DNA of 64,000 nt from Promethearchaeota archaeon (lineage in GTDB: Archaea; Asgardarchaeota; Hermodarchaeia; Hermodarchaeales; Hermodarchaeaceae), in the NCBI GenBank assembly GCA_048938385.1, contig JBHLMG010000001.1:192001-256000 (forward strand), written 5' to 3'. Position numbers and translations under genes: made by a program. The notes below the pieces were generated by a model. The model was not told the DNA's origin. It made no database searches and worked only from the letters and a program-made list of their open reading frames with translations. Shown here in pieces: positions 41,262-64,000 of the stretch. Positions within the stretch are counted from its first letter, which is position 1, and every line of letters starts with the position of its first letter.

Positions 41262-41543
41262 ATGCAGGTTGTTGTTCGAACAATCGGACCATTTACTGAA
41301 ACTTTAGGCTTTCACCAGATTACTCTAGCCCTGAAAGGACATACTGTACAAGACCTCCTACAACAACTCTGTACAGAACGCGGAAAGGGATTCTGTAATG
41401 CAGTTTTTGATGAAAAGGGAAAACTCCGTCGTTATATCAAACTCCTTGTGAATGGGCGCGGGTTGCATGTGTTACAGGGATTGGATACACCATTATCCGA
41501 TGGGGATGTCATCGCAATATTTCCACCCGTCGCCGGAGGCTAA
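41262..41543 (+). CDS. MoaD/SAMP1-like ubiquitin-fold sulfur carrier, copy A
   Basis: LVNGR, LSDGDVIAIFPPVAGG with C-terminal GG. Confidence 0.9.
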   Translation: MQVVVRTIGPFTETLGFHQITLALKGHTVQDLLQQLCTERGKGFCNAVFDEKGKLRRYIKLLVNGRGLHVLQGLDTPLSDGDVIAIFPPVAGG

Positions 41544-42871
41544 AGGGTGATTCCTAATTTCTCCCAGAGGACTGGAACAACACGATTCAAGGCTTTTTCA
41601 ACCATTTCTGGCTTAATTGTCACTACTTGATGATTATTCACAATATGTTTGCCATTTACAAAGACATGCTCAACATCATGAGCGGTGCATCCATAGACGA
41701 TGTATCCATAGACTCCGGCGGGTAATATTGGGGTGACTCGTGGCTTGGGGTGAAGGATGACGATATCGGCGCGCTTCCCTGGTTCGATGGATCCGAGTTG
41801 GTCGCTTAATCCATAAATCTGTGCACCGTTTATTGTTGCCATTTCAATGACTTGTTGTGGTGTTGTCACTCGAGGATCGAGGTGGTGGACTTTGTGAATG
41901 AGGTACGCCGTACGAATGTTTTCGATCGCGTCGAAGATAAACCCGTCATTGCCTAAACAGACCGGAATCCCAAGCTCGTACATCTCTCGGACTGGGGCGA
42001 CACCGACAGCATTGTTCATGTTGCTCATTGGATTATGCGCCACTGTGGCCCCACTACCCCGAATTAATTCGAGTTCATCGCGGTTGATGTGAACACAGTG
42101 GGCTAGCACTACATCAGAACCGAGTACTCCGAGGTCAAACAGGCGTTCAATAGTGCGTTTATCGTATCGTTCGATGTTATGATAGACATCGATAAGCCCT
42201 TCACTAGTATGGATAGTAATCGGTGCGTGCAGTTCATCTGCTTGGGTACGAGTTTTTTGAATTAATTCATCACTGAGCGTAAAGGAGGCATGCAGACTAT
42301 ACATGCCATTTAGCAGCTCATCTGGGTTTTGCTCCAGTTTCTTTAGGAACCTAATGTTCTCTTTTAGTCCCCGTTCGCCTTCCTCCTTGGAGTTGCGTTC
42401 TGTCGCTTCAAAACCAAGGATGCCACGAATACCGACCTCCCTTACTCCCTTTGCTATTGCGTCTAATACCCCTTCTATTGAGTTAGGTCCTGAATATGTA
42501 TCGGCAAAACATGTTGTGCCACTTTTAACAAACTCGTAACATGAAGCTAAGGCGCTAGCATTAGCATCTTCATTTACGAAAGCGGTATCAACTTTCCACC
42601 AAATCCGGTCTAATATTTGTAAAAAATCCGTAGTGGGTTTAATATCGAGGGGTGCCCCTCGGAGCATTATTCCATAGAGATGCGTGTGCCCACAAATGAA
42701 CCCTGGCAAAACTATGCGGCCACGGCCATCAATTTCGTGATCGGCTCTATCCTTGATGTTTTTCCCGATTTTAGCGATCATCGAATCTTCAACAAGAACA
42801 TCGGTATTTTCTAGCACTTGCCGGTGTGCATTCATCGTTACGACGAGTGCGTTTCGAATCAGAATTTTCAT
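41540..42871 (-). CDS. ssnA: SsnA-like amidohydrolase
   Basis: GHTHLYG, DFLQILDRIWWKVD, GFEATERN, ENIRF, HASFT and HNPMSNMNNAVG match SsnA signature segments (from memory of the family). Confidence 0.82.
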   Translation of the reverse strand: MKILIRNALVVTMNAHRQVLENTDVLVEDSMIAKIGKNIKDRADHEIDGRGRIVLPGFICGHTHLYGIMLRGAPLDIKPTTDFLQILDRIWWKVDTAFVNEDANASALASCYEFVKSGTTCFADTYSGPNSIEGVLDAIAKGVREVGIRGILGFEATERNSKEEGERGLKENIRFLKKLEQNPDELLNGMYSLHASFTLSDELIQKTRTQADELHAPITIHTSEGLIDVYHNIERYDKRTIERLFDLGVLGSDVVLAHCVHINRDELELIRGSGATVAHNPMSNMNNAVGVAPVREMYELGIPVCLGNDGFIFDAIENIRTAYLIHKVHHLDPRVTTPQQVIEMATINGAQIYGLSDQLGSIEPGKRADIVILHPKPRVTPILPAGVYGYIVYGCTAHDVEHVFVNGKHIVNNHQVVTIKPEMVEKALNRVVPVLWEKLGITL

Positions 42872-42977
42872 GATAGCCCAACTCAAAGGATTAGAAAGAG
42901 GCTGAATTTCAGAAACTCTAGATAGTTGAGCAAGCCTTTAAGCCTTCCAATCCTCTTTTTTCTGGGCGTGTGTTTTC

Positions 42978-43475
42978 ATGAACAAATCACCCAACAAAGT
43001 TCTGGTCGTTGATCCAGAGAAATGCACAGGTTGTGGCATCTGTTCTCTCGTGTGTTCCTTTCGGCATACTCAAGAATACAATCCCGCACGAGCGCTACTT
43101 ACGATTATTCGAGATGAAAAGCACGGAATCAACATACCTGTCATTTGTCAGCATTGCGATGTACCGCTGTGTATGGAAAGCTGCCCGGCAGATGCAATAT
43201 TTCGTGATACCGAAACTAATGCTGTCTGTATCAACCAAACAAATTGTATTGGTTGCCATCAATGTCTAGTTGCCTGTCCATTTGGAGGAATCCATATCGA
43301 TCCTGCAGATGGACGCACAGTGAAATGCGACCTTTGTGAAGGTTATGCTATGTGCGCCCAATTTTGTCCCAGAGGAGCGTTGCTATATTTAAAGCCGGAC
43401 GAATTGACCGCTCGGCTTCGAGAGAAGGGGATTAAACGCGCTGCGGAATATCTTCATGTAATTACGAGGAAGTGA
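42978..43475 (+). CDS. Four-cluster 4Fe-4S electron-transfer subunit (DmsB/CooF-like)
   Basis: CTGCGICSLVC, CQHC..C..CP, CIGCHQC..CP, KCDLC..C..CP; 4 bp before the AOR gene. Confidence 0.92.
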   Translation: MNKSPNKVLVVDPEKCTGCGICSLVCSFRHTQEYNPARALLTIIRDEKHGINIPVICQHCDVPLCMESCPADAIFRDTETNAVCINQTNCIGCHQCLVACPFGGIHIDPADGRTVKCDLCEGYAMCAQFCPRGALLYLKPDELTARLREKGIKRAAEYLHVITRK

Positions 43476-43479
43476 AAAA

Positions 43480-45417
43480 ATGAGTGAAAATCACCCATAT
43501 TATGGTTATGCCGGTCGTATTGCGGAAGTCGATTTAACGAAATCCGAGGTGAAAATCACGCCCTTAGACCGAGATTTTGCCCGAAAATATCTCGGCGGAA
43601 CTGGGTTTGCGGCTCGGATCTTGTGGGATCGAGTGAAACCATCGACTGAGCCCCTCGATCCTGATAATCCCTTATTTTTCGGCATCGGACCAGTTACAGG
43701 CGCTTTCTTTTCACCCTCTGGGCGTTTTATGGTTGCCTATAAATCTCCTCTCACAGGGTTTTGGGGTGAAGCCCACTGTGGAGGCCATTGGGGACCCCAA
43801 CTCAAGTATGCTGGCTTTGATGCACTAGTTATTCAAGGAAAGGCATCATCACCAGTCTATCTCATGGTCCAGGACAAAGCTGTTTACATTCGTGATGCCG
43901 ACCACTTGTGGGGGCGTGACACCATGGAAACCACCGATACGATACGCGAGCTACACGGAGATAATGACATTGAGGTTGCAGCTATCGGAATAGGCGGAGA
44001 GAACCTCGTTCGGTATGCAGCCATAATCGGCTCTTATTATCGAGCTGCAGGTCGGGGAGGTGCGGGCGCGGTCATGGGCAGCAAGAATCTGAAAGCCGTG
44101 GCTGTCCGTGGGCTGGGAGGAGTCAAGGTGGCAAATCCCGGGAAGTTCATGGCTGCGGCTCGGAAAGCTTACAACCAGATGACCACTGGAAAATGGGGCG
44201 AGATGAATGAGGAATCTCTGGGAAAATATGGGACTACAAACCTCGTGACAGCAATTGGTGAAATCGGACGGCTTCCAACAAAGAATCACACGACAGGTGT
44301 GTTCGAAGATGCTGATGCTATTGGACCTGAAACAATTCGCCAAAAATACCGGACAAGCCGCGAATCGTGTTTTGGTTGTGCGTTACAATGCAAATTCACA
44401 TCTGAGGTTAAATCAGGTCCTTATCAAGTAATTACAGGAGGTCCTGAGTATGAAACACTCATGGCCTTCGGTAGTAATTGCCTGAATAGCAACATTGAAT
44501 CAATTCTGTACGCAAACCAGTTATGCAATAGGTATGGTCTAGACACAATCAGCACTGGCTGTACTATCGCCTTTCTTTTTGAAGCAGCCGAAAACGGCAT
44601 CATTACGCCAAATGAAGTAGGTGGACTTGACCTCTCTTGGGGTAATGATAAAACCATTATTGCTCTCGTCGAAAAAATTGCACACCGAAAAGGGATTGGA
44701 GACCTACTCGCTGAGGGATCATTACGCGTGGCACAAAAAATAGGTAAGGGTGCCGAACGGTTTGCTATCCATGTAAAAGGTATGGAGGCTTCTGGGCAGG
44801 ATCCACGGCCACAACAAAGCGTTGGCCTTACATACGCGACCAATGTACGCGGTGCCGATCATTTAAGGAGCCTCAGCTGCTATGAGGAGTTGGGTTTTCC
44901 GGATGTCGCAATAGAACGATTCGGAGAGGACCATGCTACTGAAGTCATGGATTTGCATACTACTAGCTTCAAAGGACATCTCATCAAGGATCAAGAGGAC
45001 CTGTACGTACTCGTTGATAGCATCATTCTTTGCAAGTACGGGACAATGTGGCCTCCTGTCTATTACTTTGATATCATGGCAGAAATGCTCAAACCCCTAA
45101 CTGGTTTTGACGAATTCAGTGAGGTACAACGACTTCGACTGGTTGCGGAGCGCATTAGTAATCTTAGGCGTTGTTTTAATGTCCGCGAAGGGGCAACACG
45201 CAAGAACGAACAGCTCCATCCCCGGTTTACCGAGGAGCCAATGCCTGAAGGGCCTGGCAAAGGGCGTGTCTGTAATCTAGATCCCATGCTTGACGAATAC
45301 TATGAAGTGAGAAACTGGACAAAAGAAGGACTCCCAAGGCGTTCCGAATTAAAACGGCTTGGTTTAGAAGATGTTGCTGATGAATTGGCAAAAACAGGAA
45401 AGGTGGTAGACGAATAA
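43480..45417 (+). CDS. Tungsten aldehyde:ferredoxin oxidoreductase family (AOR/WOR), copy A
   Basis: KSPLTG, GAVMGSKNLKA, CFGCALQC, GPEYET, YGLDTIS, RGADHL, LDEYY..R.W. Confidence 0.95.
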   Translation: MSENHPYYGYAGRIAEVDLTKSEVKITPLDRDFARKYLGGTGFAARILWDRVKPSTEPLDPDNPLFFGIGPVTGAFFSPSGRFMVAYKSPLTGFWGEAHCGGHWGPQLKYAGFDALVIQGKASSPVYLMVQDKAVYIRDADHLWGRDTMETTDTIRELHGDNDIEVAAIGIGGENLVRYAAIIGSYYRAAGRGGAGAVMGSKNLKAVAVRGLGGVKVANPGKFMAAARKAYNQMTTGKWGEMNEESLGKYGTTNLVTAIGEIGRLPTKNHTTGVFEDADAIGPETIRQKYRTSRESCFGCALQCKFTSEVKSGPYQVITGGPEYETLMAFGSNCLNSNIESILYANQLCNRYGLDTISTGCTIAFLFEAAENGIITPNEVGGLDLSWGNDKTIIALVEKIAHRKGIGDLLAEGSLRVAQKIGKGAERFAIHVKGMEASGQDPRPQQSVGLTYATNVRGADHLRSLSCYEELGFPDVAIERFGEDHATEVMDLHTTSFKGHLIKDQEDLYVLVDSIILCKYGTMWPPVYYFDIMAEMLKPLTGFDEFSEVQRLRLVAERISNLRRCFNVREGATRKNEQLHPRFTEEPMPEGPGKGRVCNLDPMLDEYYEVRNWTKEGLPRRSELKRLGLEDVADELAKTGKVVDE

Positions 45418-46604
45418 TGGCAGTGGATTTAAGCGTAAATATTGCGGGGATTCCTCTTCGTAATCCCGTTCTTACGGCTGCTGGACCCACAAGTCGTGAT
45501 GGTGAAACACTCGTCAAAGCCGCTAGAGGTGGGGTAGGCGGTTTAGTGGCGAAAACCATTAGCGTGAAACCTGCCGCAGTTCCCCGACCTAACATGCAGA
45601 CACTCGACAGAGGACAAAGCCAATGGTTGCTTGCGACAGCAATGCAACATCAAGTAGTACACCTTGAACGTATCAAGGTTCGTGGTGCTTACGGGTTACT
45701 AAATCATGAATTATGGAGCGATAAGCATTATCAAAAATGGCTCGATCACGAATATCCTCGTGCAAAGGAAACCGGCCTATCGCTCATCGCCTCGGTCGGA
45801 TATACACCCGAAGAACTAGCAAAGCTTGCCCCCCTCGTTCAAAAGGCTGGTGTCGATGGAATTGAGTTCAGCACCCATTATCTCGAAACGGACCCCAAAG
45901 TCTTTAATGAAGTAGCGAAAACGCTGCAAGAGGCGGTAGATATTCCGATTTTTGCTAAGATGAGTCCCCATGTGAAGGATTTAACCATCTTCACAAAAGC
46001 GGTGGATCGGTATGTGGATGGTTTTGTCGCCATCAATACACTTGGACCGTGTCTTCACATTGACATAGAAACAGGTCGTCCTTTACTTGGTGGACCGGGT
46101 GGGGTTGGATGGCTTTCAGGACCGGCTATAAAACCACTTGCAGTTCGGTGCGTTGCTGACATCGCTCAGGGCACATCCAAACCAGTTGTCGCTGTAGGTG
46201 GTGTTAGCACTGGAGCTGATGCCATTGAGTTCTTTATGGTTGGAGCTTCAGCAGTTCAAGTTTGTACTGCTGCCATCCTCGAAGGGCATTCAGTTTACGG
46301 GCGTATTGCTAGAGAGATCGCAGCATTCCTTGAGTTGCATGATAAAGCATCGCCTGAAGATATTCGAGGACAAGCGTTGAAGCATTTACCAAGAGACACA
46401 CTGCGTGTTGAAAGCCTTCCCCCAACAGTGAATGAAGAATCCTGCTCTGGCTGTGGGTTATGCACTACATCCTGCACATATTCAGCAATTTCTGTCAATC
46501 CAGAAACGACAAAGGCTCAAGTAGACTCTAACCTGTGTTATGGGTGTGGTGTGTGTGTAAGTATCTGTCCTCACAGAGCCCTTTCTTTTAACCCATCAAA
46601 ATAA
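45417..46604 (+). CDS. FMN-dependent dihydroorotate/dihydropyrimidine dehydrogenase-like reductase with a C-terminal 2x[4Fe-4S] domain (PreA/YgfK-N-like)
   Basis: NPVLTAAGP, KTI, KMSP, AINT, LSGPAIKP, GGV, GASAVQVCT and two CxxCxxCxxxC motifs. The ELNxSCP loop is replaced by EFSTHY. Confidence 0.85.
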   Translation: MAVDLSVNIAGIPLRNPVLTAAGPTSRDGETLVKAARGGVGGLVAKTISVKPAAVPRPNMQTLDRGQSQWLLATAMQHQVVHLERIKVRGAYGLLNHELWSDKHYQKWLDHEYPRAKETGLSLIASVGYTPEELAKLAPLVQKAGVDGIEFSTHYLETDPKVFNEVAKTLQEAVDIPIFAKMSPHVKDLTIFTKAVDRYVDGFVAINTLGPCLHIDIETGRPLLGGPGGVGWLSGPAIKPLAVRCVADIAQGTSKPVVAVGGVSTGADAIEFFMVGASAVQVCTAAILEGHSVYGRIAREIAAFLELHDKASPEDIRGQALKHLPRDTLRVESLPPTVNEESCSGCGLCTTSCTYSAISVNPETTKAQVDSNLCYGCGVCVSICPHRALSFNPSK

Positions 46605-46619
46605 GGTGAACTTGACGCG

Positions 46620-46907
46620 ATGTTAAAAAAACCAAAAGTTACCGTTCGTATGTTCACGAGCCTCCGAGCCTTAACAGGAACCAGAGAAACGGAATTGGAA
46701 GCATCTGATGTGCAAGAGGTCATTGATATTCTAGGTAACCGTTTTGGAGAGAAGTTTAACCAAATGCTACTTGAACCCGATGGGTCGTTAAAAAGATACT
46801 TCCATGTTCTCGTTAACGGACGGCACATTCGGCTTCAACAAGGGCTACAAACATGCCTCTCTGATGGTGATGTTGTAGCGATTTTTCCTCCGATTGGAGG
46901 AGGTTAG
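46620..46907 (+). CDS. MoaD/SAMP1-like protein, copy B
   Basis: LVNGR, LSDGDVVAIFPPIGGG. Confidence 0.9.
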   Translation: MLKKPKVTVRMFTSLRALTGTRETELEASDVQEVIDILGNRFGEKFNQMLLEPDGSLKRYFHVLVNGRHIRLQQGLQTCLSDGDVVAIFPPIGGG

Positions 46908-48526: not shown

Positions 48527-50452
48527 TCATTCCGGCAGTTCGATCCCCTGAGTAGTAAGATCGCGCACTACATCCTTAAGTCCCACACGCTCAAGGGTTT
48601 GCTTAGTTGGCAGCCCATCTCTTAACCGCCAACCTCGCTGTTCATAGTATTCATCCAGCATTTGGTCAAGTTCAACTACTTGGCCCTTTGACGGTCCCTC
48701 TGGGGCGGGTGTGTGGGTTAGTCGTCGTGGAAGCGCATCATCTTTTCGGCGAATCCCTTCTCGAACATTGAATCCGCGATTTAAGTTAACGATTCGCTCG
48801 CCAATTAATCGAAACTTGGCTTCTGTAAATTTTATTCCGACAGTCACATCAAAGGTCGCTACTACATCCTCGTAAAAGAGGACTGGGGGGATTAATGTTC
48901 CATACTTGCACACACCTAAAGATTCGACGACTGCACAAAAATCCTCGTTCTCCTTTACCATGACACCTTTATACTTCGGATTCAATCGGTCACCGATTTC
49001 AGGTAAATACGCTCTCCCATAACGAATACCTATCTCCTCATCAAACCCAACTTCATCCAGGACCGGGAAGGCATACAGATGGTCTGCACCCCGCGCTGCC
49101 GTCGCCGACGCTAAACCCATCGACTTTTGTGCACGAGGTTCTTGCCCTGCAATTTCTTGTTTCTTGCAGTGCATCACGAATTTCTCAGTTCCTCGACCAA
49201 TTTTTTGCGCGGCACGATAACTTCCTTCAGCCAGGATATCGCCGAACCCTTCACGCTTGGCAATCATGTGAATTAGTTTGATTATGGTTTTGTGGTTTCC
49301 CCAGCTCAAATCAATCCCACCAGTATCTTCAGCAGTAATTAATCCTTCATCCCAGGCTTCCATCGCCCAACTTATCGTAGCACCAGTTGAAATTGTGTCG
49401 AGTCCGTATAGATTCGAGATGTGATGTCCATACAATATTGATTCTAGGTTATCATTACCACAACGACTCCCTAGAGCTGCTTGGGATTCATATTCAGGGC
49501 TTCCACCACAATAGGCGTATGGACCAGTTTTGACGAGGGTGTATCTTCCACAGCGTTGTAAACAAGCGTAATCTGCCCTAGGCTTCACAAGGTACTGGTT
49601 CTTAATAGCTTCACCACTAATCTTTTGGTATTGAGCAAAAACTCCTGATCGCATGTTGTAACTAGGAAGTCGACCAATTTCTTGCATCAGTTCAACAAGA
49701 TTCGTCGTTCCGTACTTAGCCCGGCTCGCTGTAAAAGGACTATCCAACATTTTTTGGTGTAATTTTTCTATTACCTCAAGGTATCTGTCAGGTTTGGCTA
49801 TTGAAATATCTTGACTCCCACGGACAGCTACGGCTTTCAGATTCTTGCTCCCCATGACCGCCCCCAAGCCCGTTCTTGCTGCGGCACGATCATAATCGTT
49901 AATTATGGCTGCATAGCGAACGAGGTTCTCCCCAGCTTGACCAATGCATGAGACTCGAAGACCCGGATCACCTTGGTTTTCCTTAATTATCTCCTCTGTT
50001 TCGTTTGTATCTCGACCCCACAACTCCGTGGCATCTAACAGACGGGCAACACCGTTGTCAATGAATAAATACACAGGACTCCTTGCACGCCCTGTAACGA
50101 CGATAGCATCAAATCCAGCGAATTTTAATTCAGGTCCCCAATGCCCTGCTGAATGGGCTTCTCCAAAGATGCCTGTTAACGGGGATTTTGCGGCTACCAC
50201 ATAACGTGAAGCTTGGGGCCAAAGGGTTCCAGTAAAAGGTCCTGTTGCCCAAATCAGGACATTTTCGGGAGTGAGGGGATCTATTGAGGGTCCTACCTTG
50301 TCGTATAAAATTCTAGAAGCGAATCCTTGACCACCCAAGTAGGTAAGGGCGAACTCTCGGTCCAGTGGAATGGGCTTACAATGACCCTTTGTCATATCAA
50401 CATGTAATAGTTGTCCAGCATATCCACCAAGTTTTGTTTTCGACTTCGTCAT
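48527..50452 (-). CDS. Tungsten AOR/WOR family oxidoreductase, copy B
   Basis: KSPLTG, GAVMGSKNLKA, PEYES, YGLDTIS, RGADHL. The Fe-S motif reads DYACLQRC. Confidence 0.95.
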   Translation of the reverse strand: MTKSKTKLGGYAGQLLHVDMTKGHCKPIPLDREFALTYLGGQGFASRILYDKVGPSIDPLTPENVLIWATGPFTGTLWPQASRYVVAAKSPLTGIFGEAHSAGHWGPELKFAGFDAIVVTGRARSPVYLFIDNGVARLLDATELWGRDTNETEEIIKENQGDPGLRVSCIGQAGENLVRYAAIINDYDRAAARTGLGAVMGSKNLKAVAVRGSQDISIAKPDRYLEVIEKLHQKMLDSPFTASRAKYGTTNLVELMQEIGRLPSYNMRSGVFAQYQKISGEAIKNQYLVKPRADYACLQRCGRYTLVKTGPYAYCGGSPEYESQAALGSRCGNDNLESILYGHHISNLYGLDTISTGATISWAMEAWDEGLITAEDTGGIDLSWGNHKTIIKLIHMIAKREGFGDILAEGSYRAAQKIGRGTEKFVMHCKKQEIAGQEPRAQKSMGLASATAARGADHLYAFPVLDEVGFDEEIGIRYGRAYLPEIGDRLNPKYKGVMVKENEDFCAVVESLGVCKYGTLIPPVLFYEDVVATFDVTVGIKFTEAKFRLIGERIVNLNRGFNVREGIRRKDDALPRRLTHTPAPEGPSKGQVVELDQMLDEYYEQRGWRLRDGLPTKQTLERVGLKDVVRDLTTQGIELPE

Positions 50453-61147: not shown

Positions 61148-62227
61148 TTAGAAAGGTTTCTTTGCGCGCTGTTGTTGGCGTTCTTCACCAATCTTTTGAT
61201 AAAGTTCTAACGCGTTCTTAGGTGGAATGTGTTTTTCTTCTTTTTCTTGCAACGAAAGTGCGTCTGATGGACAAGTGGTCACGCATAAGCCACAACCAAT
61301 ACAGTAATCGAGATCAATGCTAGCAACATCCCTGTCTATTGTAATGGCATTCATTTGACATCGTTCAATACAGGTTTCACATCCAGTACACAACTCAGGA
61401 TCTACTTGCGCATAATAGTTACTAGCTACCAAGGTACTAGGTTTCGGGAGTTTTTTCAGGTTCGTTAAGATAGCACAACAACAACCGCAACAAAGGCATA
61501 TCACGAAGCTCTTTTGATCGTTGCTCGGACTGCAAACAAGACCTGCTTTCTCTGCTTCGTCAAGGATTTTCAGTGCTTCTTCTTGTGAAATCTCTCGACC
61601 TATTCCATTTTCGATGTATGCATAAGCGCCTGTCGAAAAAATAAGGCAGACCTCCCGAGGATTATCACAGCCCTCCCCGAGGAGTTCCTTTTCCTTCTTG
61701 CAAATGCATTCTGCCACAGCAATTTTACTCTGGCGCTTAACGATATCTCTAACATCATCATATGCAGCAACATCAATCGAATGATCGACACTTTCTGCCA
61801 CTGGTACTACGCGAAGTTGGGGAGTACGCATGGAAATGAGTTCGTCTCGAAGAGCTTCATCGATGTATTGTTCGAAATCCTCAGCAAACTCCTTTGTGAG
61901 AGTTCCCACTTGTCGTTCGTAGATGCCTACCACAAACCATTCGGCTCGGTATTGGGTTATACCTCCTTTCCTCGAACGAAAAATCAATCCCTTCTCAGCC
62001 ATGGTCTCAAGTAAGGGCTCGATCTCCTTTGCGGTGCGTTGAGTTTTCTGAGCAATCTGTTCAGCGGTTTCTGGAATGGGTGTTAGGCTAAGAGCCATTT
62101 GCGCTTCTTCCTCAGTGAAAAGATGGCGAAGAATGCGCATTTCTACTCCGGACTTTGTTTTGGGAAACCCGACGGGGAGGTTATCGAGGTGTGTTCGAAG
62201 GCGTTCATATACATCTTCAGTAGTCAT
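61148..62227 (-). CDS. Fe-S protein (N-terminal wHTH-like region, Cys-rich core, C-terminal 2x[4Fe-4S])
   Basis: ECICK, ICLCCGCCC, CTGCETCIERC, CIGCGLCVTTC. Confidence 0.85.
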   Translation of the reverse strand: MTTEDVYERLRTHLDNLPVGFPKTKSGVEMRILRHLFTEEEAQMALSLTPIPETAEQIAQKTQRTAKEIEPLLETMAEKGLIFRSRKGGITQYRAEWFVVGIYERQVGTLTKEFAEDFEQYIDEALRDELISMRTPQLRVVPVAESVDHSIDVAAYDDVRDIVKRQSKIAVAECICKKEKELLGEGCDNPREVCLIFSTGAYAYIENGIGREISQEEALKILDEAEKAGLVCSPSNDQKSFVICLCCGCCCAILTNLKKLPKPSTLVASNYYAQVDPELCTGCETCIERCQMNAITIDRDVASIDLDYCIGCGLCVTTCPSDALSLQEKEEKHIPPKNALELYQKIGEERQQQRAKKPF

Positions 62228-62310: not shown

Positions 62311-64000
62311 TTAACGAGGAACTGGGATCGTTTCTTTGAAAAAGAAGCTGTTCTTTTTTACATAGCTCAGATATTGCTGGATTTCTTCATGGATTGTACT
62401 TGGGGACCATCCAAGAATTCCGCCCATCCGTTTTGCGACAGTGGCGGCAATTCGTCCTTGGTATTCAGGGCGAACCAGCCAGCAAATTTCCATACGACGA
62501 CAAAGTACATCTTCGAGGTGAAGGGGAGCCTCATGCTCAACGACGTAATCAATTTCAGCAATAATCCATGGAGCCACTTCTACAGGATATGCTGGATCAT
62601 CTAACAATCTAGCAGCCATTTCTGGGTGCTTGTTGGTACCCTGGAGGATTGTAAGGCCGCCACGGCCATATTGTTGATAGAGGTGAAGAAGAATGTGTGG
62701 ATCAAGATCAGAACTAGTCACTTCGGGGTGTTTTTGCCAGTCATCCCAGGTTATTGTGATGGCATAGGTGATCTTTGTGAGGTTTTTTTTACCTGAGAAT
62801 TTTGGTAGATTGAGTTCCTTCTGTGATTTTCGGATGTAGTTAACGAGTAAATCTTCTGCCATTTTTCGGAATATGGTTAACTTCCCTCCTAATAGGCTAA
62901 AGAGGCCATCTTCGCGTTCTAAAATAGTGTGTTTGCGTGAGACTTCACTTTCTGAGATACCCACCTCTGCCACTAAGGGTCGAAGGCCCGCGTATGTGCC
63001 TTGAATGTATTCATCACTGATTCTAGCCTCAGGGAAGAGAACCTGGATAGAGTTACGTAGGTAATCTGCATCCTCACCGGTGCAATAGCATTCAGCAGGG
63101 TTTCCTGAGAAATCCGTATCAGTGGTTCCCACAAGGACCCATTCGTTTCGACGGATTAAAAAGAAAAAGCGTTTATCATCGATTGAGTTCAGGGCAAAGG
63201 TGTCGTTGATAGGAAAATCCTTTCGATGGTATACAAGGTGTACTCCCTTTGTAGGGCGGAGTAATTTTTGGTGGGATTCATCATCTAAGGCAAGGAGTTC
63301 GTCAGCCCATACACCAGTTGTATTTACAATGACTTTTCCTTTGATTGTAATCTCTTCTTGTTGTAGTCTGCTCTGATCGATTGCTTGAACTCCTTCAATT
63401 CTTCCGCTTTCGTCATGGTGTAATCTAATGACACGTAAATAGTTCATTGCAGCAGCGTTCCCTTTCCAGATGGCTTCTTTCAGCGTTTCAATGACGAGTC
63501 GTGCATCATCGATGTTTGAGTCATACCACATTGCCGCACCGGTTAGCCGAGAAGTATCTAGTAACGGTTCAAGCTCATGGATTGCCTGAACATTTTTTGT
63601 AGTCTTTCCTCGCTTATAGCCGCCAAAACCACAGAGCAAATCATACATAAAGAAAGCCAATCGTAGTGTACGACGACTCCAACTCTTTGGTAGTTCTTGG
63701 GTTCCTCGTCTTCCAGCTTCAAGAAAGGGATAAAGGAACCGTGTTGGTCGGGTCATGTGCGACAGTCCATGATCACGTAACCAATTTCGCTCCGTAGCAG
63801 CTTCGCGTACTAAGCCGAACGCTCTTTGAGCTAGATAACGAATTCCTCCATGCGCAAGCTTTGTTGATCGACTGGAAGTACCATAAGCGAAATCGTGTTG
63901 ATCAATGACAGCGACGCTTAATCCCCTGTATGCGGCCTCGAGTGCAACACCTGCGCCATTAATCCCTGCGCCAATCACAACGACATCCCAGAGTCTATCT
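62311..64000 (-). CDS. glpD: FAD-dependent glycerol-3-phosphate dehydrogenase/oxidase (5' end beyond the window)
   Basis: DVVVIGAGING, GTSSRSTKLAHGGIRYL, DDARL, KGVHL, VGTTD, GLRPL, GGKLT; frame open to the window edge. Confidence 0.92.
   Translation of the reverse strand, partial: DRLWDVVVIGAGINGAGVALEAAYRGLSVAVIDQHDFAYGTSSRSTKLAHGGIRYLAQRAFGLVREAATERNWLRDHGLSHMTRPTRFLYPFLEAGRRGTQELPKSWSRRTLRLAFFMYDLLCGFGGYKRGKTTKNVQAIHELEPLLDTSRLTGAAMWYDSNIDDARLVIETLKEAIWKGNAAAMNYLRVIRLHHDESGRIEGVQAIDQSRLQQEEITIKGKVIVNTTGVWADELLALDDESHQKLLRPTKGVHLVYHRKDFPINDTFALNSIDDKRFFFLIRRNEWVLVGTTDTDFSGNPAECYCTGEDADYLRNSIQVLFPEARISDEYIQGTYAGLRPLVAEVGISESEVSRKHTILEREDGLFSLLGGKLTIFRKMAEDLLVNYIRKSQKELNLPKFSGKKNLTKITYAITITWDDWQKHPEVTSSDLDPHILLHLYQQYGRGGLTILQGTNKHPEMAARLLDDPAYPVEVAPWIIAEIDYVVEHEAPLHLEDVLCRRMEICWLVRPEYQGRIAATVAKRMGGILGWSPSTIHEEIQQYLSYVKKNSFFFKETIPVPR

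What the first reader, a model, noticed from the sequence alone, without database searches (positions are those of the whole stretch)
45417..46604. DHOD/PreA-like flavoprotein with no catalytic Cys, translationally coupled to a tungsten AOR
Seen: the FMN barrel and two 4Fe-4S motifs are intact, but the active-site loop ELNxSCP reads IEFSTHY (45861-45881). No PreT or PyrK partner is nearby, and the ATG overlaps the AOR stop. Established: the Cys/Ser of this loop is the general acid/base of DHODH and dihydropyrimidine dehydrogenase. Recalled, needs checking: the YgfK N-terminal domain has AAGP, NTEWS and STMH segments resembling AAGP, NHELWS and STH here. Inference: a ferredoxin-fed reductase for a non-pyrimidine heterocycle, forming a redox module with AOR.
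Basis: partly seen in the sequence, partly recalled or inferred. Interest (0 to 1): 0.7.

Follow-up and report, generated by a model that had tools for sequence, protein, structure and literature searches.

The report
Cys-less purine-ring reductase wired to tungsten enzymes
This gene of an Asgard archaeon encodes a flavin and iron-sulfur enzyme that most likely reduces an oxidised purine ring during anaerobic purine breakdown, and here it is joined to tungsten enzymes with an altered active site that sit where bacteria use xanthine-dehydrogenase-type enzymes.

Summary
ORF 45417-46604 (395 aa) is a DPD/PreA-type FMN barrel with two complete 4Fe-4S motifs. It reads IEFSTHY where PreA and DPD carry ExNxSCP, and its ATG overlaps the AOR stop (TAATG). 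No PreT or PyrK lies nearby. The recalled YgfK segments (AAGP, NTEWS, STMH) exist and align with it.

The loop is a family signature, E-[FY]-S-x-H-Y plus N-x-E-x-W-S. It marks a well-supported clade (0.999) of archaeal and bacterial proteins that falls below every PreA and PyrD cut-off.

Across 80 genomes the gene lies directly after either an SsnA-like amidohydrolase or an AOR. Its neighbours are hydantoinase, carbamoyltransferases, carbamate kinase and M20 peptidase. In bacteria it follows XdhABC. This is the gene set of the bacterial reductive uric-acid (2,8-dioxopurine) pathway described in 2025, and the protein holds the YgfK/UacX position.

Best reading: a ferredoxin- or polyferredoxin-fed oxopurine reductase.

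The AORs in these clusters form three dedicated clades. All 73 carry Gln in place of the second-shell Tyr427. Genomes that have them mostly lack XDH-family enzymes. They may therefore replace the purine hydroxylases, but this is inferred and untested.

The parts
45417..46604 (+). Target gene: a Cys-less DPD/PreA-like flavoprotein (FMN TIM barrel plus a C-terminal 2x[4Fe-4S] domain), a member of the E-[FY]-S-x-H-Y family. Proposed oxopurine (2,8-dioxopurine-type) reductase.
45861..45881 (+). Active-site loop I-E-F-S-T-H-Y, which replaces ExNxSCP. E150, S152, H154 and Y155 are invariant. Position 153, the Cys column, varies (T/L/C/V/I/S).
45702..45719 (+). N96-H-E98-L-W100-S motif (family signature N-x-E-x-W-S). 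It aligns with NTEWS of YgfK and with the N609 strand of DPD.
46443..46568 (+). Two CxxCxxCxxxC motifs (C343 to C384) for two [4Fe-4S] clusters.
45415..45419 (+). TAATG: the AOR stop codon overlaps the start codon of the target (translational coupling).
43480..45417 (+). AOR-family (tungsto)pterin enzyme of clade A, the clade that always lies upstream of the PreA-like gene. It has Gln at the PfAOR Tyr427 position.
42978..43475 (+). AorA-like polyferredoxin with 4x[4Fe-4S]. First gene of the operon.
46620..46907 (+). MoaD/SAMP1-like small protein, last gene of the operon. In related loci it mostly tracks the presence of an AOR.
41540..42886 (-). SsnA-like cyclic amidohydrolase, divergent from the operon across a 91-bp gap. 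Proposed to open the ring of the reductase product.
41229..41543 (+). Second MoaD/SAMP1-like gene.
39748..41148 (-). TRZ/ATZ-type (deaminase-like) amidohydrolase, a paralogue of the SsnA-like gene. Possibly an aminopurine deaminase.
38641..39714 (-). OTC/AOTC-family carbamoyltransferase (32% identity to E. coli YgeW).
37578..38597 (+). Second OTC-family carbamoyltransferase (34% identity to YgeW by tblastn).
48527..50452 (-). Second cluster AOR, clade C, also with Gln at the Tyr427 position.
50449..50946 (-). Second AorA-like polyferredoxin, paired with the clade C AOR.

Best explanation
The gene encodes the ring-reducing (dearomatising) enzyme of an archaeal version of the anaerobic reductive purine pathway, known in bacteria as the 2,8-dioxopurine or 'yanthine' pathway. 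It is the functional counterpart of E. coli YgfK and C. difficile UacX.

Shown: it has a DPD-type FMN barrel with the FMN and substrate Lys/Asn residues kept (K46, N96, K181, N207) and a complete C-terminal 2x[4Fe-4S] domain. It lacks any NAD(P)H/FAD module. It belongs to a separate, conserved clade in which E-[FY]-S-x-H-Y and N-x-E-x-W-S replace the ExNxSCP and NxExxS motifs of pyrimidine and orotate enzymes. Across archaea and bacteria it is encoded next to SsnA-like, hydantoinase, carbamoyltransferase, carbamate kinase, M20 and XDH or AOR genes.

Inferred: low-potential electrons enter through the Fe-S chain. Here they would come from the co-translated AorA-like polyferredoxin that also serves the AOR; elsewhere they would come from free ferredoxin. 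FMNH2 delivers a hydride to the C4=C5 bond of an oxopurine, most likely 2,8-dioxopurine. The proton would come from the invariant His154/Tyr155/Ser152 cluster in place of the missing Cys. The unfavourable product is then pulled on by the neighbouring SsnA-like amidohydrolase. Hydantoinase follows, and two carbamoyltransferases with carbamate kinase yield ATP.
For: Fold and cofactor motifs are established. The protein is not PreA or PyrD: it scores below all curated cut-offs (PreA 183.9 against 335; PyrD 170.6 against 270), and a canonical PyrD and PyrK sit elsewhere in the genome.

The signature is invariant in 32 archaeal and 120 bacterial members, and the clade has 0.999 support against Cys-bearing PreA/PydA types.

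Context of 80 genome loci: 73 have an AOR or a cyclic amidohydrolase within 10 kb. The immediate upstream gene is SsnA-like in 22 and an AOR in 25. In Desulfurococcaceae the order is CT-CT-carbamate kinase-SsnA-like-PreA-like. Bacterial members lie in the orders XdhABC-PreA-like-M20-OTC-PALP-XdhABC and amidohydrolase-PreA-like-M20.

The window's own genome supplies the rest of the pathway: hydantoinase (496.8 bits, above the cut-off), an M20 peptidase, carbamate kinase (above the cut-off) and a PLP lyase.

YgfK is an experimentally shown 2,8-dioxopurine reductase that needs SsnA coupling. A PF01180 protein (UacX), proposed to be ferredoxin-dependent, replaces it in C. difficile (PMC12507026; bioRxiv 10.1101/2025.04.24.650524). 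A profile alignment to the YgfK N-domain gives probability 84% with matching AAGP, NxEWS, ST.H, K.NP and NTLG segments.
Against: No activity data exist for any member of this clade. The sequence of C. difficile UacX was not within reach, so orthology to it is untested.

Similarity to YgfK is weak (BLAST is not significant; hhalign 84%). YgfK also has G-C-P just after STMH, so the shared motif need not mean a shared Cys-less mechanism.

The SsnA-like and carbamoyltransferase genes score below their equivalog cut-offs (381.7 against 444; YgeW 167 against 453), so the exact substrate could be another oxopurine or a related heterocycle.

In this genome the hydantoinase, the carbamate kinase, an M20 peptidase and a PLP lyase are on other contigs.
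Confidence: 0.62

Rival explanations
1. It is a ferredoxin-dependent dihydropyrimidine dehydrogenase (PydAc-like) that reduces uracil or thymine. Dihydropyrimidinase would follow, and ureidopropionate would be cleaved phosphorolytically by the carbamoyltransferases.
For: DPD is the best structural and sequence match. Two of the three pyrimidine-binding Asn residues and both Lys residues are kept. Hydantoinase/dihydropyrimidinase genes are frequent neighbours. A ferredoxin-dependent PydA exists (PMC7332683).
Against: The catalytic Cys and the loop Asn are missing in every member, and the mobile loop is about 12 residues shorter. The clusters hold SsnA-like genes, two carbamoyltransferases, and XDH or AOR enzymes. 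This fits a bicyclic purine with two ureido groups, not a pyrimidine. The family is separated from the Cys-bearing PreA/PydA types with 0.999 support.
Confidence: 0.12
2. It is a third, electron-transfer subunit of the AOR complex, holding the place of the FAD subunit AorC. Its FMN would pass electrons to or from an unknown soluble carrier, with no heterocycle chemistry of its own.
For: The gene order polyFd-AOR-X-MoaD-like parallels the AorA, AorB, AorC subunit set of A. aromaticum AOR. The start and stop codons overlap. The order is colinear in 35 of 80 loci across several phyla, and the upstream AORs are monophyletic. The AorABC architecture is described in PMC10413684.
Against: The same protein occurs without an AOR of these clades, directly after SsnA-like or XdhABC genes. 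The substrate-site residues (N96, E98, W100, S152, H154, Y155, N207) are invariant, which would not be expected of a mere electron carrier.
Confidence: 0.12
3. It is a degenerate or inactive DHOD/PreA paralogue, or a second dihydroorotate dehydrogenase.
For: The canonical acid/base residue is lost.
Against: Conservation is strong across at least ten phyla, with all cofactor ligands invariant. Canonical PyrD and PyrK are present elsewhere in the genome. The gene is embedded in a catabolic operon.
Confidence: 0.03

Closest known systems
YgfK (DOPOR), the NAD(P)H:2,8-dioxopurine reductase of E. coli and C. sporogenes
   Same: Both have a DHOD-like FMN barrel fed by Fe-S clusters. Both are encoded next to SsnA within a purine-catabolic cluster. 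They share the AAGP, NxEWS, S-T-(x)-H, K-x-N/S-P and NTLG segments.
   Different: YgfK is 1032 aa and has its own GltD-like FAD/NAD(P)H module. It has long insertions in the barrel and a G-C-P after STMH. The relation is remote (hhalign 84%, BLAST not significant).
UacX of C. difficile (UniProt Q181U4), a PF01180 PydA homologue that replaces YgfK
   Same: Both are PF01180 proteins with Fe-S clusters and no FAD domain. Both have a presumed ferredoxin donor and lie in the SsnA neighbourhood. That neighbourhood is the criterion used in PMC12507026 to call UacX.
   Different: No direct sequence comparison was possible. UacX is said to resemble PydAc, which has two ferredoxin domains, whereas this protein has only the C-terminal one. 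UacX is not known to be linked to an AOR.
PreA/PydA (dihydropyrimidine dehydrogenase, FMN subunit) and clostridial PydAc
   Same: Same fold and domain order: barrel followed by a 2x[4Fe-4S] domain. Identity to E. coli PreA is 27% over the full length. The Lys and two Asn residues of the FMN and substrate site are kept.
   Different: No catalytic Cys, no loop Asn, a truncated mobile loop and no PreT partner. The score is below the PreA cut-off, and the protein belongs to a separate clade.
AorABC-type multisubunit tungsten aldehyde oxidoreductase (Aromatoleum aromaticum, PDB 8C0Z)
   Same: An AorA-like polyferredoxin (124.5 bits to 8c0z_C) and an AorB-like catalytic subunit (386 bits) are followed by a third redox protein in one operon.
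   Different: The third protein is an FMN/Fe-S DPD-like enzyme, not the FAD/NAD-binding AorC. The AOR carries Gln at the Tyr427 position, Asp at Cys447 and Leu at Tyr452.

Membership tests
PreA/PydA dihydropyrimidine dehydrogenase (FMN subunit) | FMN TIM barrel followed by a C-terminal 2x[4Fe-4S] ferredoxin domain | tested here: met
   Pfam DHO_dh plus Fer4. All 8 Cys are invariant. Foldseek top hits are pig DPD.
PreA/PydA dihydropyrimidine dehydrogenase (FMN subunit) | Catalytic Cys in the ExNxSCP loop (pig C671), together with the loop Asn (N668) | tested here: not met
   The loop reads IEFSTHY. Thr153 falls on the Cys column and the Asn is deleted. The Cys column is T/L/C/V/I/S across the family.
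PreA/PydA dihydropyrimidine dehydrogenase (FMN subunit) | Curated NCBIfam equivalog score | tested here: not met
   NF006183 PreA scores 183.9 bits against a cut-off of 335.
PreA/PydA dihydropyrimidine dehydrogenase (FMN subunit) | Partner PreT/PydA1 (FAD, NAD(P)H, Fdx1) encoded alongside | tested here: not met
   The only PreT-like gene of the genome is on contig C33, next to another AOR.
Class 1B dihydroorotate dehydrogenase PyrD | Curated score, catalytic Cys and an adjacent PyrK | tested here: not met
   TIGR01037 scores 170.6 against 270. There is no Cys. Canonical PyrD (204.9 bits) and PyrK are on contig C28.
YgfK/UacX-type oxopurine (2,8-dioxopurine) reductase of the reductive purine pathway | DHOD-like FMN domain supplied by Fe-S clusters | tested here: met
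YgfK/UacX-type oxopurine (2,8-dioxopurine) reductase of the reductive purine pathway | Encoded next to SsnA within a cluster that also holds hydantoinase, carbamoyltransferase or carbamate kinase, M20, PLP-lyase and Mo/W hydroxylase genes | tested here: met
   Window: the SsnA-like gene lies 91 bp from the operon, with two carbamoyltransferases and a deaminase-like amidohydrolase. Relatives.
YgfK/UacX-type oxopurine (2,8-dioxopurine) reductase of the reductive purine pathway | Detectable homology to the YgfK FMN domain | tested here: inconclusive
   hhalign gives probability 84%, E 7.6e-6, with shared motifs. Pairwise BLAST is not significant.
YgfK/UacX-type oxopurine (2,8-dioxopurine) reductase of the reductive purine pathway | Orthology to C. 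difficile UacX (Q181U4) | not tested
The papers give only the accession.
YgfK/UacX-type oxopurine (2,8-dioxopurine) reductase of the reductive purine pathway | Reduction of 2,8-dioxopurine, coupled to SsnA | not testable with these tools
   This requires an enzyme assay.
AorABC-type multisubunit AOR (as its third subunit) | AorA-like polyferredoxin and AorB-like catalytic subunit in the same operon | tested here: met
AorABC-type multisubunit AOR (as its third subunit) | Third subunit is an FAD/NAD-binding, AorC-like protein | tested here: not met
   The third gene is DPD-like (FMN), with no Rossmann/FAD domain.
AorABC-type multisubunit AOR (as its third subunit) | Stable physical complex with the polyferredoxin and AOR | not testable with these tools
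   Only synteny is available. The complex prediction gave no verdict (see Tried and rejected).

The most novel reading that the evidence does not exclude
In Asgard, Bathyarchaeia, Korarchaeia and related archaea, three dedicated clades of AOR-family tungstoenzymes replace the Mo/Se xanthine-dehydrogenase-type enzymes of reductive purine catabolism. All carry a Tyr427-to-Gln second-shell change, and each pairs with an AorA-like polyferredoxin. Under this reading they hydroxylate or dehydroxylate purine carbons and pass the electrons along the polyferredoxin straight to the Cys-less PreA-like reductase. For a 6-oxopurine such as hypoxanthine, two hydroxylations, one dehydroxylation and one ring reduction would balance. 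The module would then convert it to a dihydro-dioxopurine with no external electron donor.
Probability: 0.3. Interest if true: 0.9.

Novelty: new variant of a known kind. Interest (0 to 1): 0.7.

Why it matters
The bacterial reductive uric-acid (2,8-dioxopurine) pathway was worked out only in 2025. The papers on it that were read here, and the full-text searches made, mention no archaeal version.

This locus indicates that a homologous pathway is widespread in archaea, including Asgard lineages central to models of eukaryote origins. It would give these fermenters a nucleobase-to-ATP route through carbamoyl phosphate.

It also defines a sequence signature, E-[FY]-S-x-H-Y with N-x-E-x-W-S, for a Cys-less branch of the DHOD/DPD superfamily. 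Public annotation mostly calls these proteins 'dihydroorotate dehydrogenase', 'PreA' or '4Fe-4S binding protein'.

Finally, it points to a testable new role for the AOR family. No AOR is known to act on purines. Here, however, three AOR clades with an altered active site sit where bacteria place XDH enzymes.

Tried and rejected
1. Complex prediction of the polyferredoxin (alignment A2) with the PreA-like protein (A1) returned 'no answer', with scores of 0.00 and 0.00. This is not evidence either way. AOR plus the PreA-like protein exceeded the size limit and was not tried.

2. A search for longer, fused forms of the protein (693-2000 aa) found none at E <= 1e-40. This is weak evidence.

3. I tried to reach C. 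difficile UacX for a direct comparison. The papers give only the accession Q181U4. Cluster look-ups and context look-ups of candidate representatives led instead to other Cys-less subfamilies in unrelated contexts, and to a eukaryote-like contig.

4. Pairwise BLAST to YgfK was not significant. Only the profile comparison aligned the two.

5. Literature searches for an AOR paired with a DHOD-like protein, or for an archaeal dioxopurine pathway, found nothing.

6. The idea that the AOR is an ordinary aldehyde oxidiser that merely donates electrons was considered. It is not excluded, since Thr243, Glu313 and His448 are kept. It is judged less likely because of the invariant Tyr427-to-Gln change and the clade-specific synteny.

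7. Model coordinates could not be inspected, so the distances from His154 and Tyr155 to the FMN N5 were not measured.
Full report
**Observation**

The ORF at 45417-46604 (+) gives a 395-aa protein. It has a Pfam DHO_dh barrel (113.7 bits) and two 4Fe-4S motifs. Its best curated match is PreA, at 183.9 bits against a cut-off of 335. PyrD models also fall below their cut-offs.

The nearest solved relatives by sequence are pig DPD and L. lactis DHODB. An AlphaFold2 model (pLDDT 89.8) matches DPD domains IV-V and class 1 DHODs by Foldseek.

Bases 45861-45881 read I-E-F-S-T-H-Y. DPD has ELNLSCPHG here and E. coli PreA has ECNFSCPQ. The loop is about 12 residues shorter than in DPD. Thr153 occupies the Cys column, and the loop Asn is gone.

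The AOR stop and the ATG overlap as TAATG, behind a GGTGG run. No PreT or PyrK lies in the window. The genome's only PreT-like gene is on contig C33. PyrK-like genes are on C28, C33 and C2, and the canonical PyrD is on C28.

A profile comparison aligns them with AAGP, NHELWS and FSTHY here (probability 84%, E 7.6e-6). Two caveats apply. Pairwise BLAST is not significant. YgfK also continues STMH with G-C-P-P, so it may retain a Cys.

**The protein family**

The window comes from a roughly 90%-complete, 2.48-Mb archaeal genome. It carries GGGP synthase. The closest relatives of the protein (84-88% identity) are from Hermodarchaeota.

Homologues are abundant in Asgard lineages, Bathyarchaeia, Korarchaeia, deep Nitrososphaerota, Hadarchaea and Desulfurococcaceae, including the genome of Thermogladius sp. 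4427co. There is also a large bacterial branch that includes Zhuqueibacterota, Calditrichaeota, KSB1 and Spirochaetaceae.

In 32 archaeal sequences the following residues are invariant: K46, N96, E98, W100, E150, S152, H154, Y155, K181, N207 and all eight cluster cysteines. All 120 bacterial members read E[FY]S[IV]HY and NxExWS, and all have two CxxCxxCxxxC motifs. The Cys column itself varies: T 113, L 22, C 16, V 6, I 6, S 2.

In a tree, the family is separated from the Cys-bearing PreA/PydA types by a split with 0.999 support. Other short-loop, Cys-less subfamilies form a sister group. So the missing Cys is a defining and ancient trait of this family, not decay.

**Genomic context**

In the window the operon is polyferredoxin (42978-43475), AOR (43480-45417), the target, and a MoaD/SAMP-like gene (46620-46907).

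Divergent from the operon, 91 bp away, is an SsnA-like amidohydrolase. It scores 381.7 bits to the SsnA model, which is its best family, and is 28% identical to E. coli SsnA. Beyond it lie a second MoaD-like gene, a TRZ/ATZ deaminase-like amidohydrolase and two OTC-family carbamoyltransferases (32-34% identity to YgeW). A second polyferredoxin-AOR pair lies at 48527-50946.

Elsewhere in the genome there are a D-hydantoinase (above its cut-off) with an M20 deacylase nearby, and a carbamate kinase (above its cut-off) beside a PLP ammonia-lyase.

I examined 80 loci from other genomes. Of these, 73 carry an AOR or a cyclic amidohydrolase within 10 kb. The immediate upstream gene is an AOR in 25 and SsnA-like in 22.
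- Desulfurococcaceae show CT-CT-carbamate kinase-SsnA-like-PreA-like.
- Hadarchaea show hydantoinase, then SsnA-like-PreA-like.
- Bacterial members sit in XdhABC-PreA-like-M20-OTC-PALP-XdhABC (L096, L100) or amidohydrolase-PreA-like-M20 (L099).

This is the gene set of the reductive uric-acid, or 2,8-dioxopurine, pathway. In that pathway YgfK reduces 2,8-dioxopurine and needs SsnA to pull the reaction forward. HyuA, YgeW with YqeA, YgeY and YgeX then finish the breakdown. In C. difficile a PF01180 protein, UacX, takes the place of YgfK and is thought to use ferredoxin (PMC12507026; bioRxiv 10.1101/2025.04.24.650524). A ferredoxin-dependent PydA is also known (PMC7332683).

**Most likely function**

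The protein is best read as a ferredoxin- or polyferredoxin-fed oxopurine reductase in the YgfK/UacX role.

The fold, the cofactor ligands, the family signature and the conserved neighbourhood are shown. The substrate (2,8-dioxopurine or a close relative), the proton donor (His154, Tyr155 or Ser152) and the electron route through the polyferredoxin are inferred.

**The AORs**

The polyferredoxin is AorA-like (124.5 bits to 8c0z_C). The AOR resembles bona fide AORs (443 bits to P. furiosus AOR; 386 bits to AorB).

The genome has eight AOR paralogues. In a tree of 80 AORs, the cluster-linked ones form three clades:
- clade A lies upstream of the PreA-like gene and includes the window's 43480-45417 gene (support 0.984);
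- clade B includes the copy on the genome's own contig C29 (support 1.0);
- clade C includes the window's 48527-50452 gene (support 1.0).

Together the three clades have 0.99 support. The other five paralogues and the Thermogladius AORs fall outside them.

All 73 members of clades A-C have Gln at the position of P. furiosus Tyr427, Asp at Cys447 and L/I/F at Tyr452. They keep Thr243, Glu311, Glu313 and His448. The outgroup paralogues mostly have Y, H or W at the Tyr427 position. A 2025 review calls Tyr427 universally conserved in known AORs and says it positions the aldehyde. The review links changes at this position to loss of aldehyde activity (WOR4) or to a new activity (WOR5/ASOR) (PMC12096430).

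The distribution of XDH-family enzymes points the same way. Of 28 genomes whose PreA-like gene is linked to an A-C AOR, 20 have no XDH-family (PF02738) match. These include 15 of the 16 Asgard genomes sampled (the sixteenth has only a 34-bit fragment), and the window's own genome also has none. Of 22 genomes without such linkage, 20 have XDH, usually three or four copies. Fisher's exact test gives p = 1e-5, without correction for phylogeny.

Together with XdhABC lying exactly upstream of the PreA-like gene in bacteria, this suggests non-orthologous replacement of the purine hydroxylases by AORs. This is inference only. An ordinary aldehyde-oxidising, electron-donating role is not excluded.

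**Is it an AOR subunit?**

Synteny, start/stop overlap and monophyly of the upstream AORs favour a functional module. But the protein also occurs without any AOR of these clades. A complex prediction gave no verdict, and no fused forms were found. I therefore treat the physical complex as open.

**Novelty**

The reductase role itself was described in bacteria in 2025. What is new here:
- the Cys-less signature clade;
- its wide occurrence in archaea, including Asgard lineages;
- the operon fusion with an AorA/AorB-type tungsten module in place of an NAD(P)H module or an XDH.

Searches found no paper on an archaeal dioxopurine pathway or on an AOR paired with a DHOD-like protein.

Noticed in passing
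L094:9001-10137 and L095:7996-9132 (Hadza gut metagenome contigs): A member of the same family, with loop EFSCHY (Cys at the variable position), lies on contigs whose other genes look eukaryotic: bZIP, WD40, Mpp10, Sad1/UNC, PARG and a protein kinase. A Flavodoxin_2/FMN_red gene sits beside it. This may be a transfer into an anaerobic gut protist.
   Followed up: partly
own genome G000, contig C33:25254-32512: Another AOR paralogue (29175-30995), outside clades A-C and with His at the Tyr427 position, is followed by the genome's only GltD/PreT-like gene. A PyrK-like gene lies nearby. This looks like an AorABC- or Nfn-like NAD(P)-linked AOR module.
   Followed up: no
window 61148-62227 (-) and 62311-63978 (-): A 359-aa protein has a C-terminal 2x[4Fe-4S] domain and an N-terminal ~270 aa with no Pfam match. 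It lies next to a glycerol-3-phosphate-dehydrogenase-like FAD enzyme (DAO plus DAO_C).
   Followed up: no
L091:228-1316, L092:1722-2876 (relatives P0177, P0161): Further Cys-less, short-loop PreA-like subfamilies (loops such as ELVSYxx and EIPAYD) exist in quite different neighbourhoods (MatE and PfkB; LarA and LplA). Their functions are unknown.
   Followed up: partly
window 41229-41543 and 46620-46907; related loci: Two MoaD/SAMP1-like genes lie in the cluster. Across loci this small gene accompanies the AOR-linked clusters and is mostly absent from the AOR-free Desulfurococcaceae clusters. It probably serves tungsten-cofactor maturation rather than the reductase.
   Followed up: partly
L044, L049, L065, L071, L075, L079-L083, L088: Desulfurococcaceae clusters carry two carbamoyltransferases and a carbamate kinase directly before SsnA-like-PreA-like. 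This suggests that both ureido groups of the opened purine might be phosphorolysed, giving two ATP, unlike the E. coli scheme with one transferase and one M20 hydrolase.
   Followed up: no
window 45588-45692 (residues 58-92 of the target): A ~30-residue beta-hairpin insertion (lower pLDDT, 63-83) is present in the 395-aa forms (Hermod, Bathy, Kor, Desulfurococcaceae). It is absent from the ~364-aa Thorarchaeota and bacterial forms.
   Followed up: no
window 24150-32646 (-): An unrelated MoxR AAA ATPase, DUF58/vWA, DUF4350 and large transglutaminase-like gene set lies upstream of the cluster.
   Followed up: no
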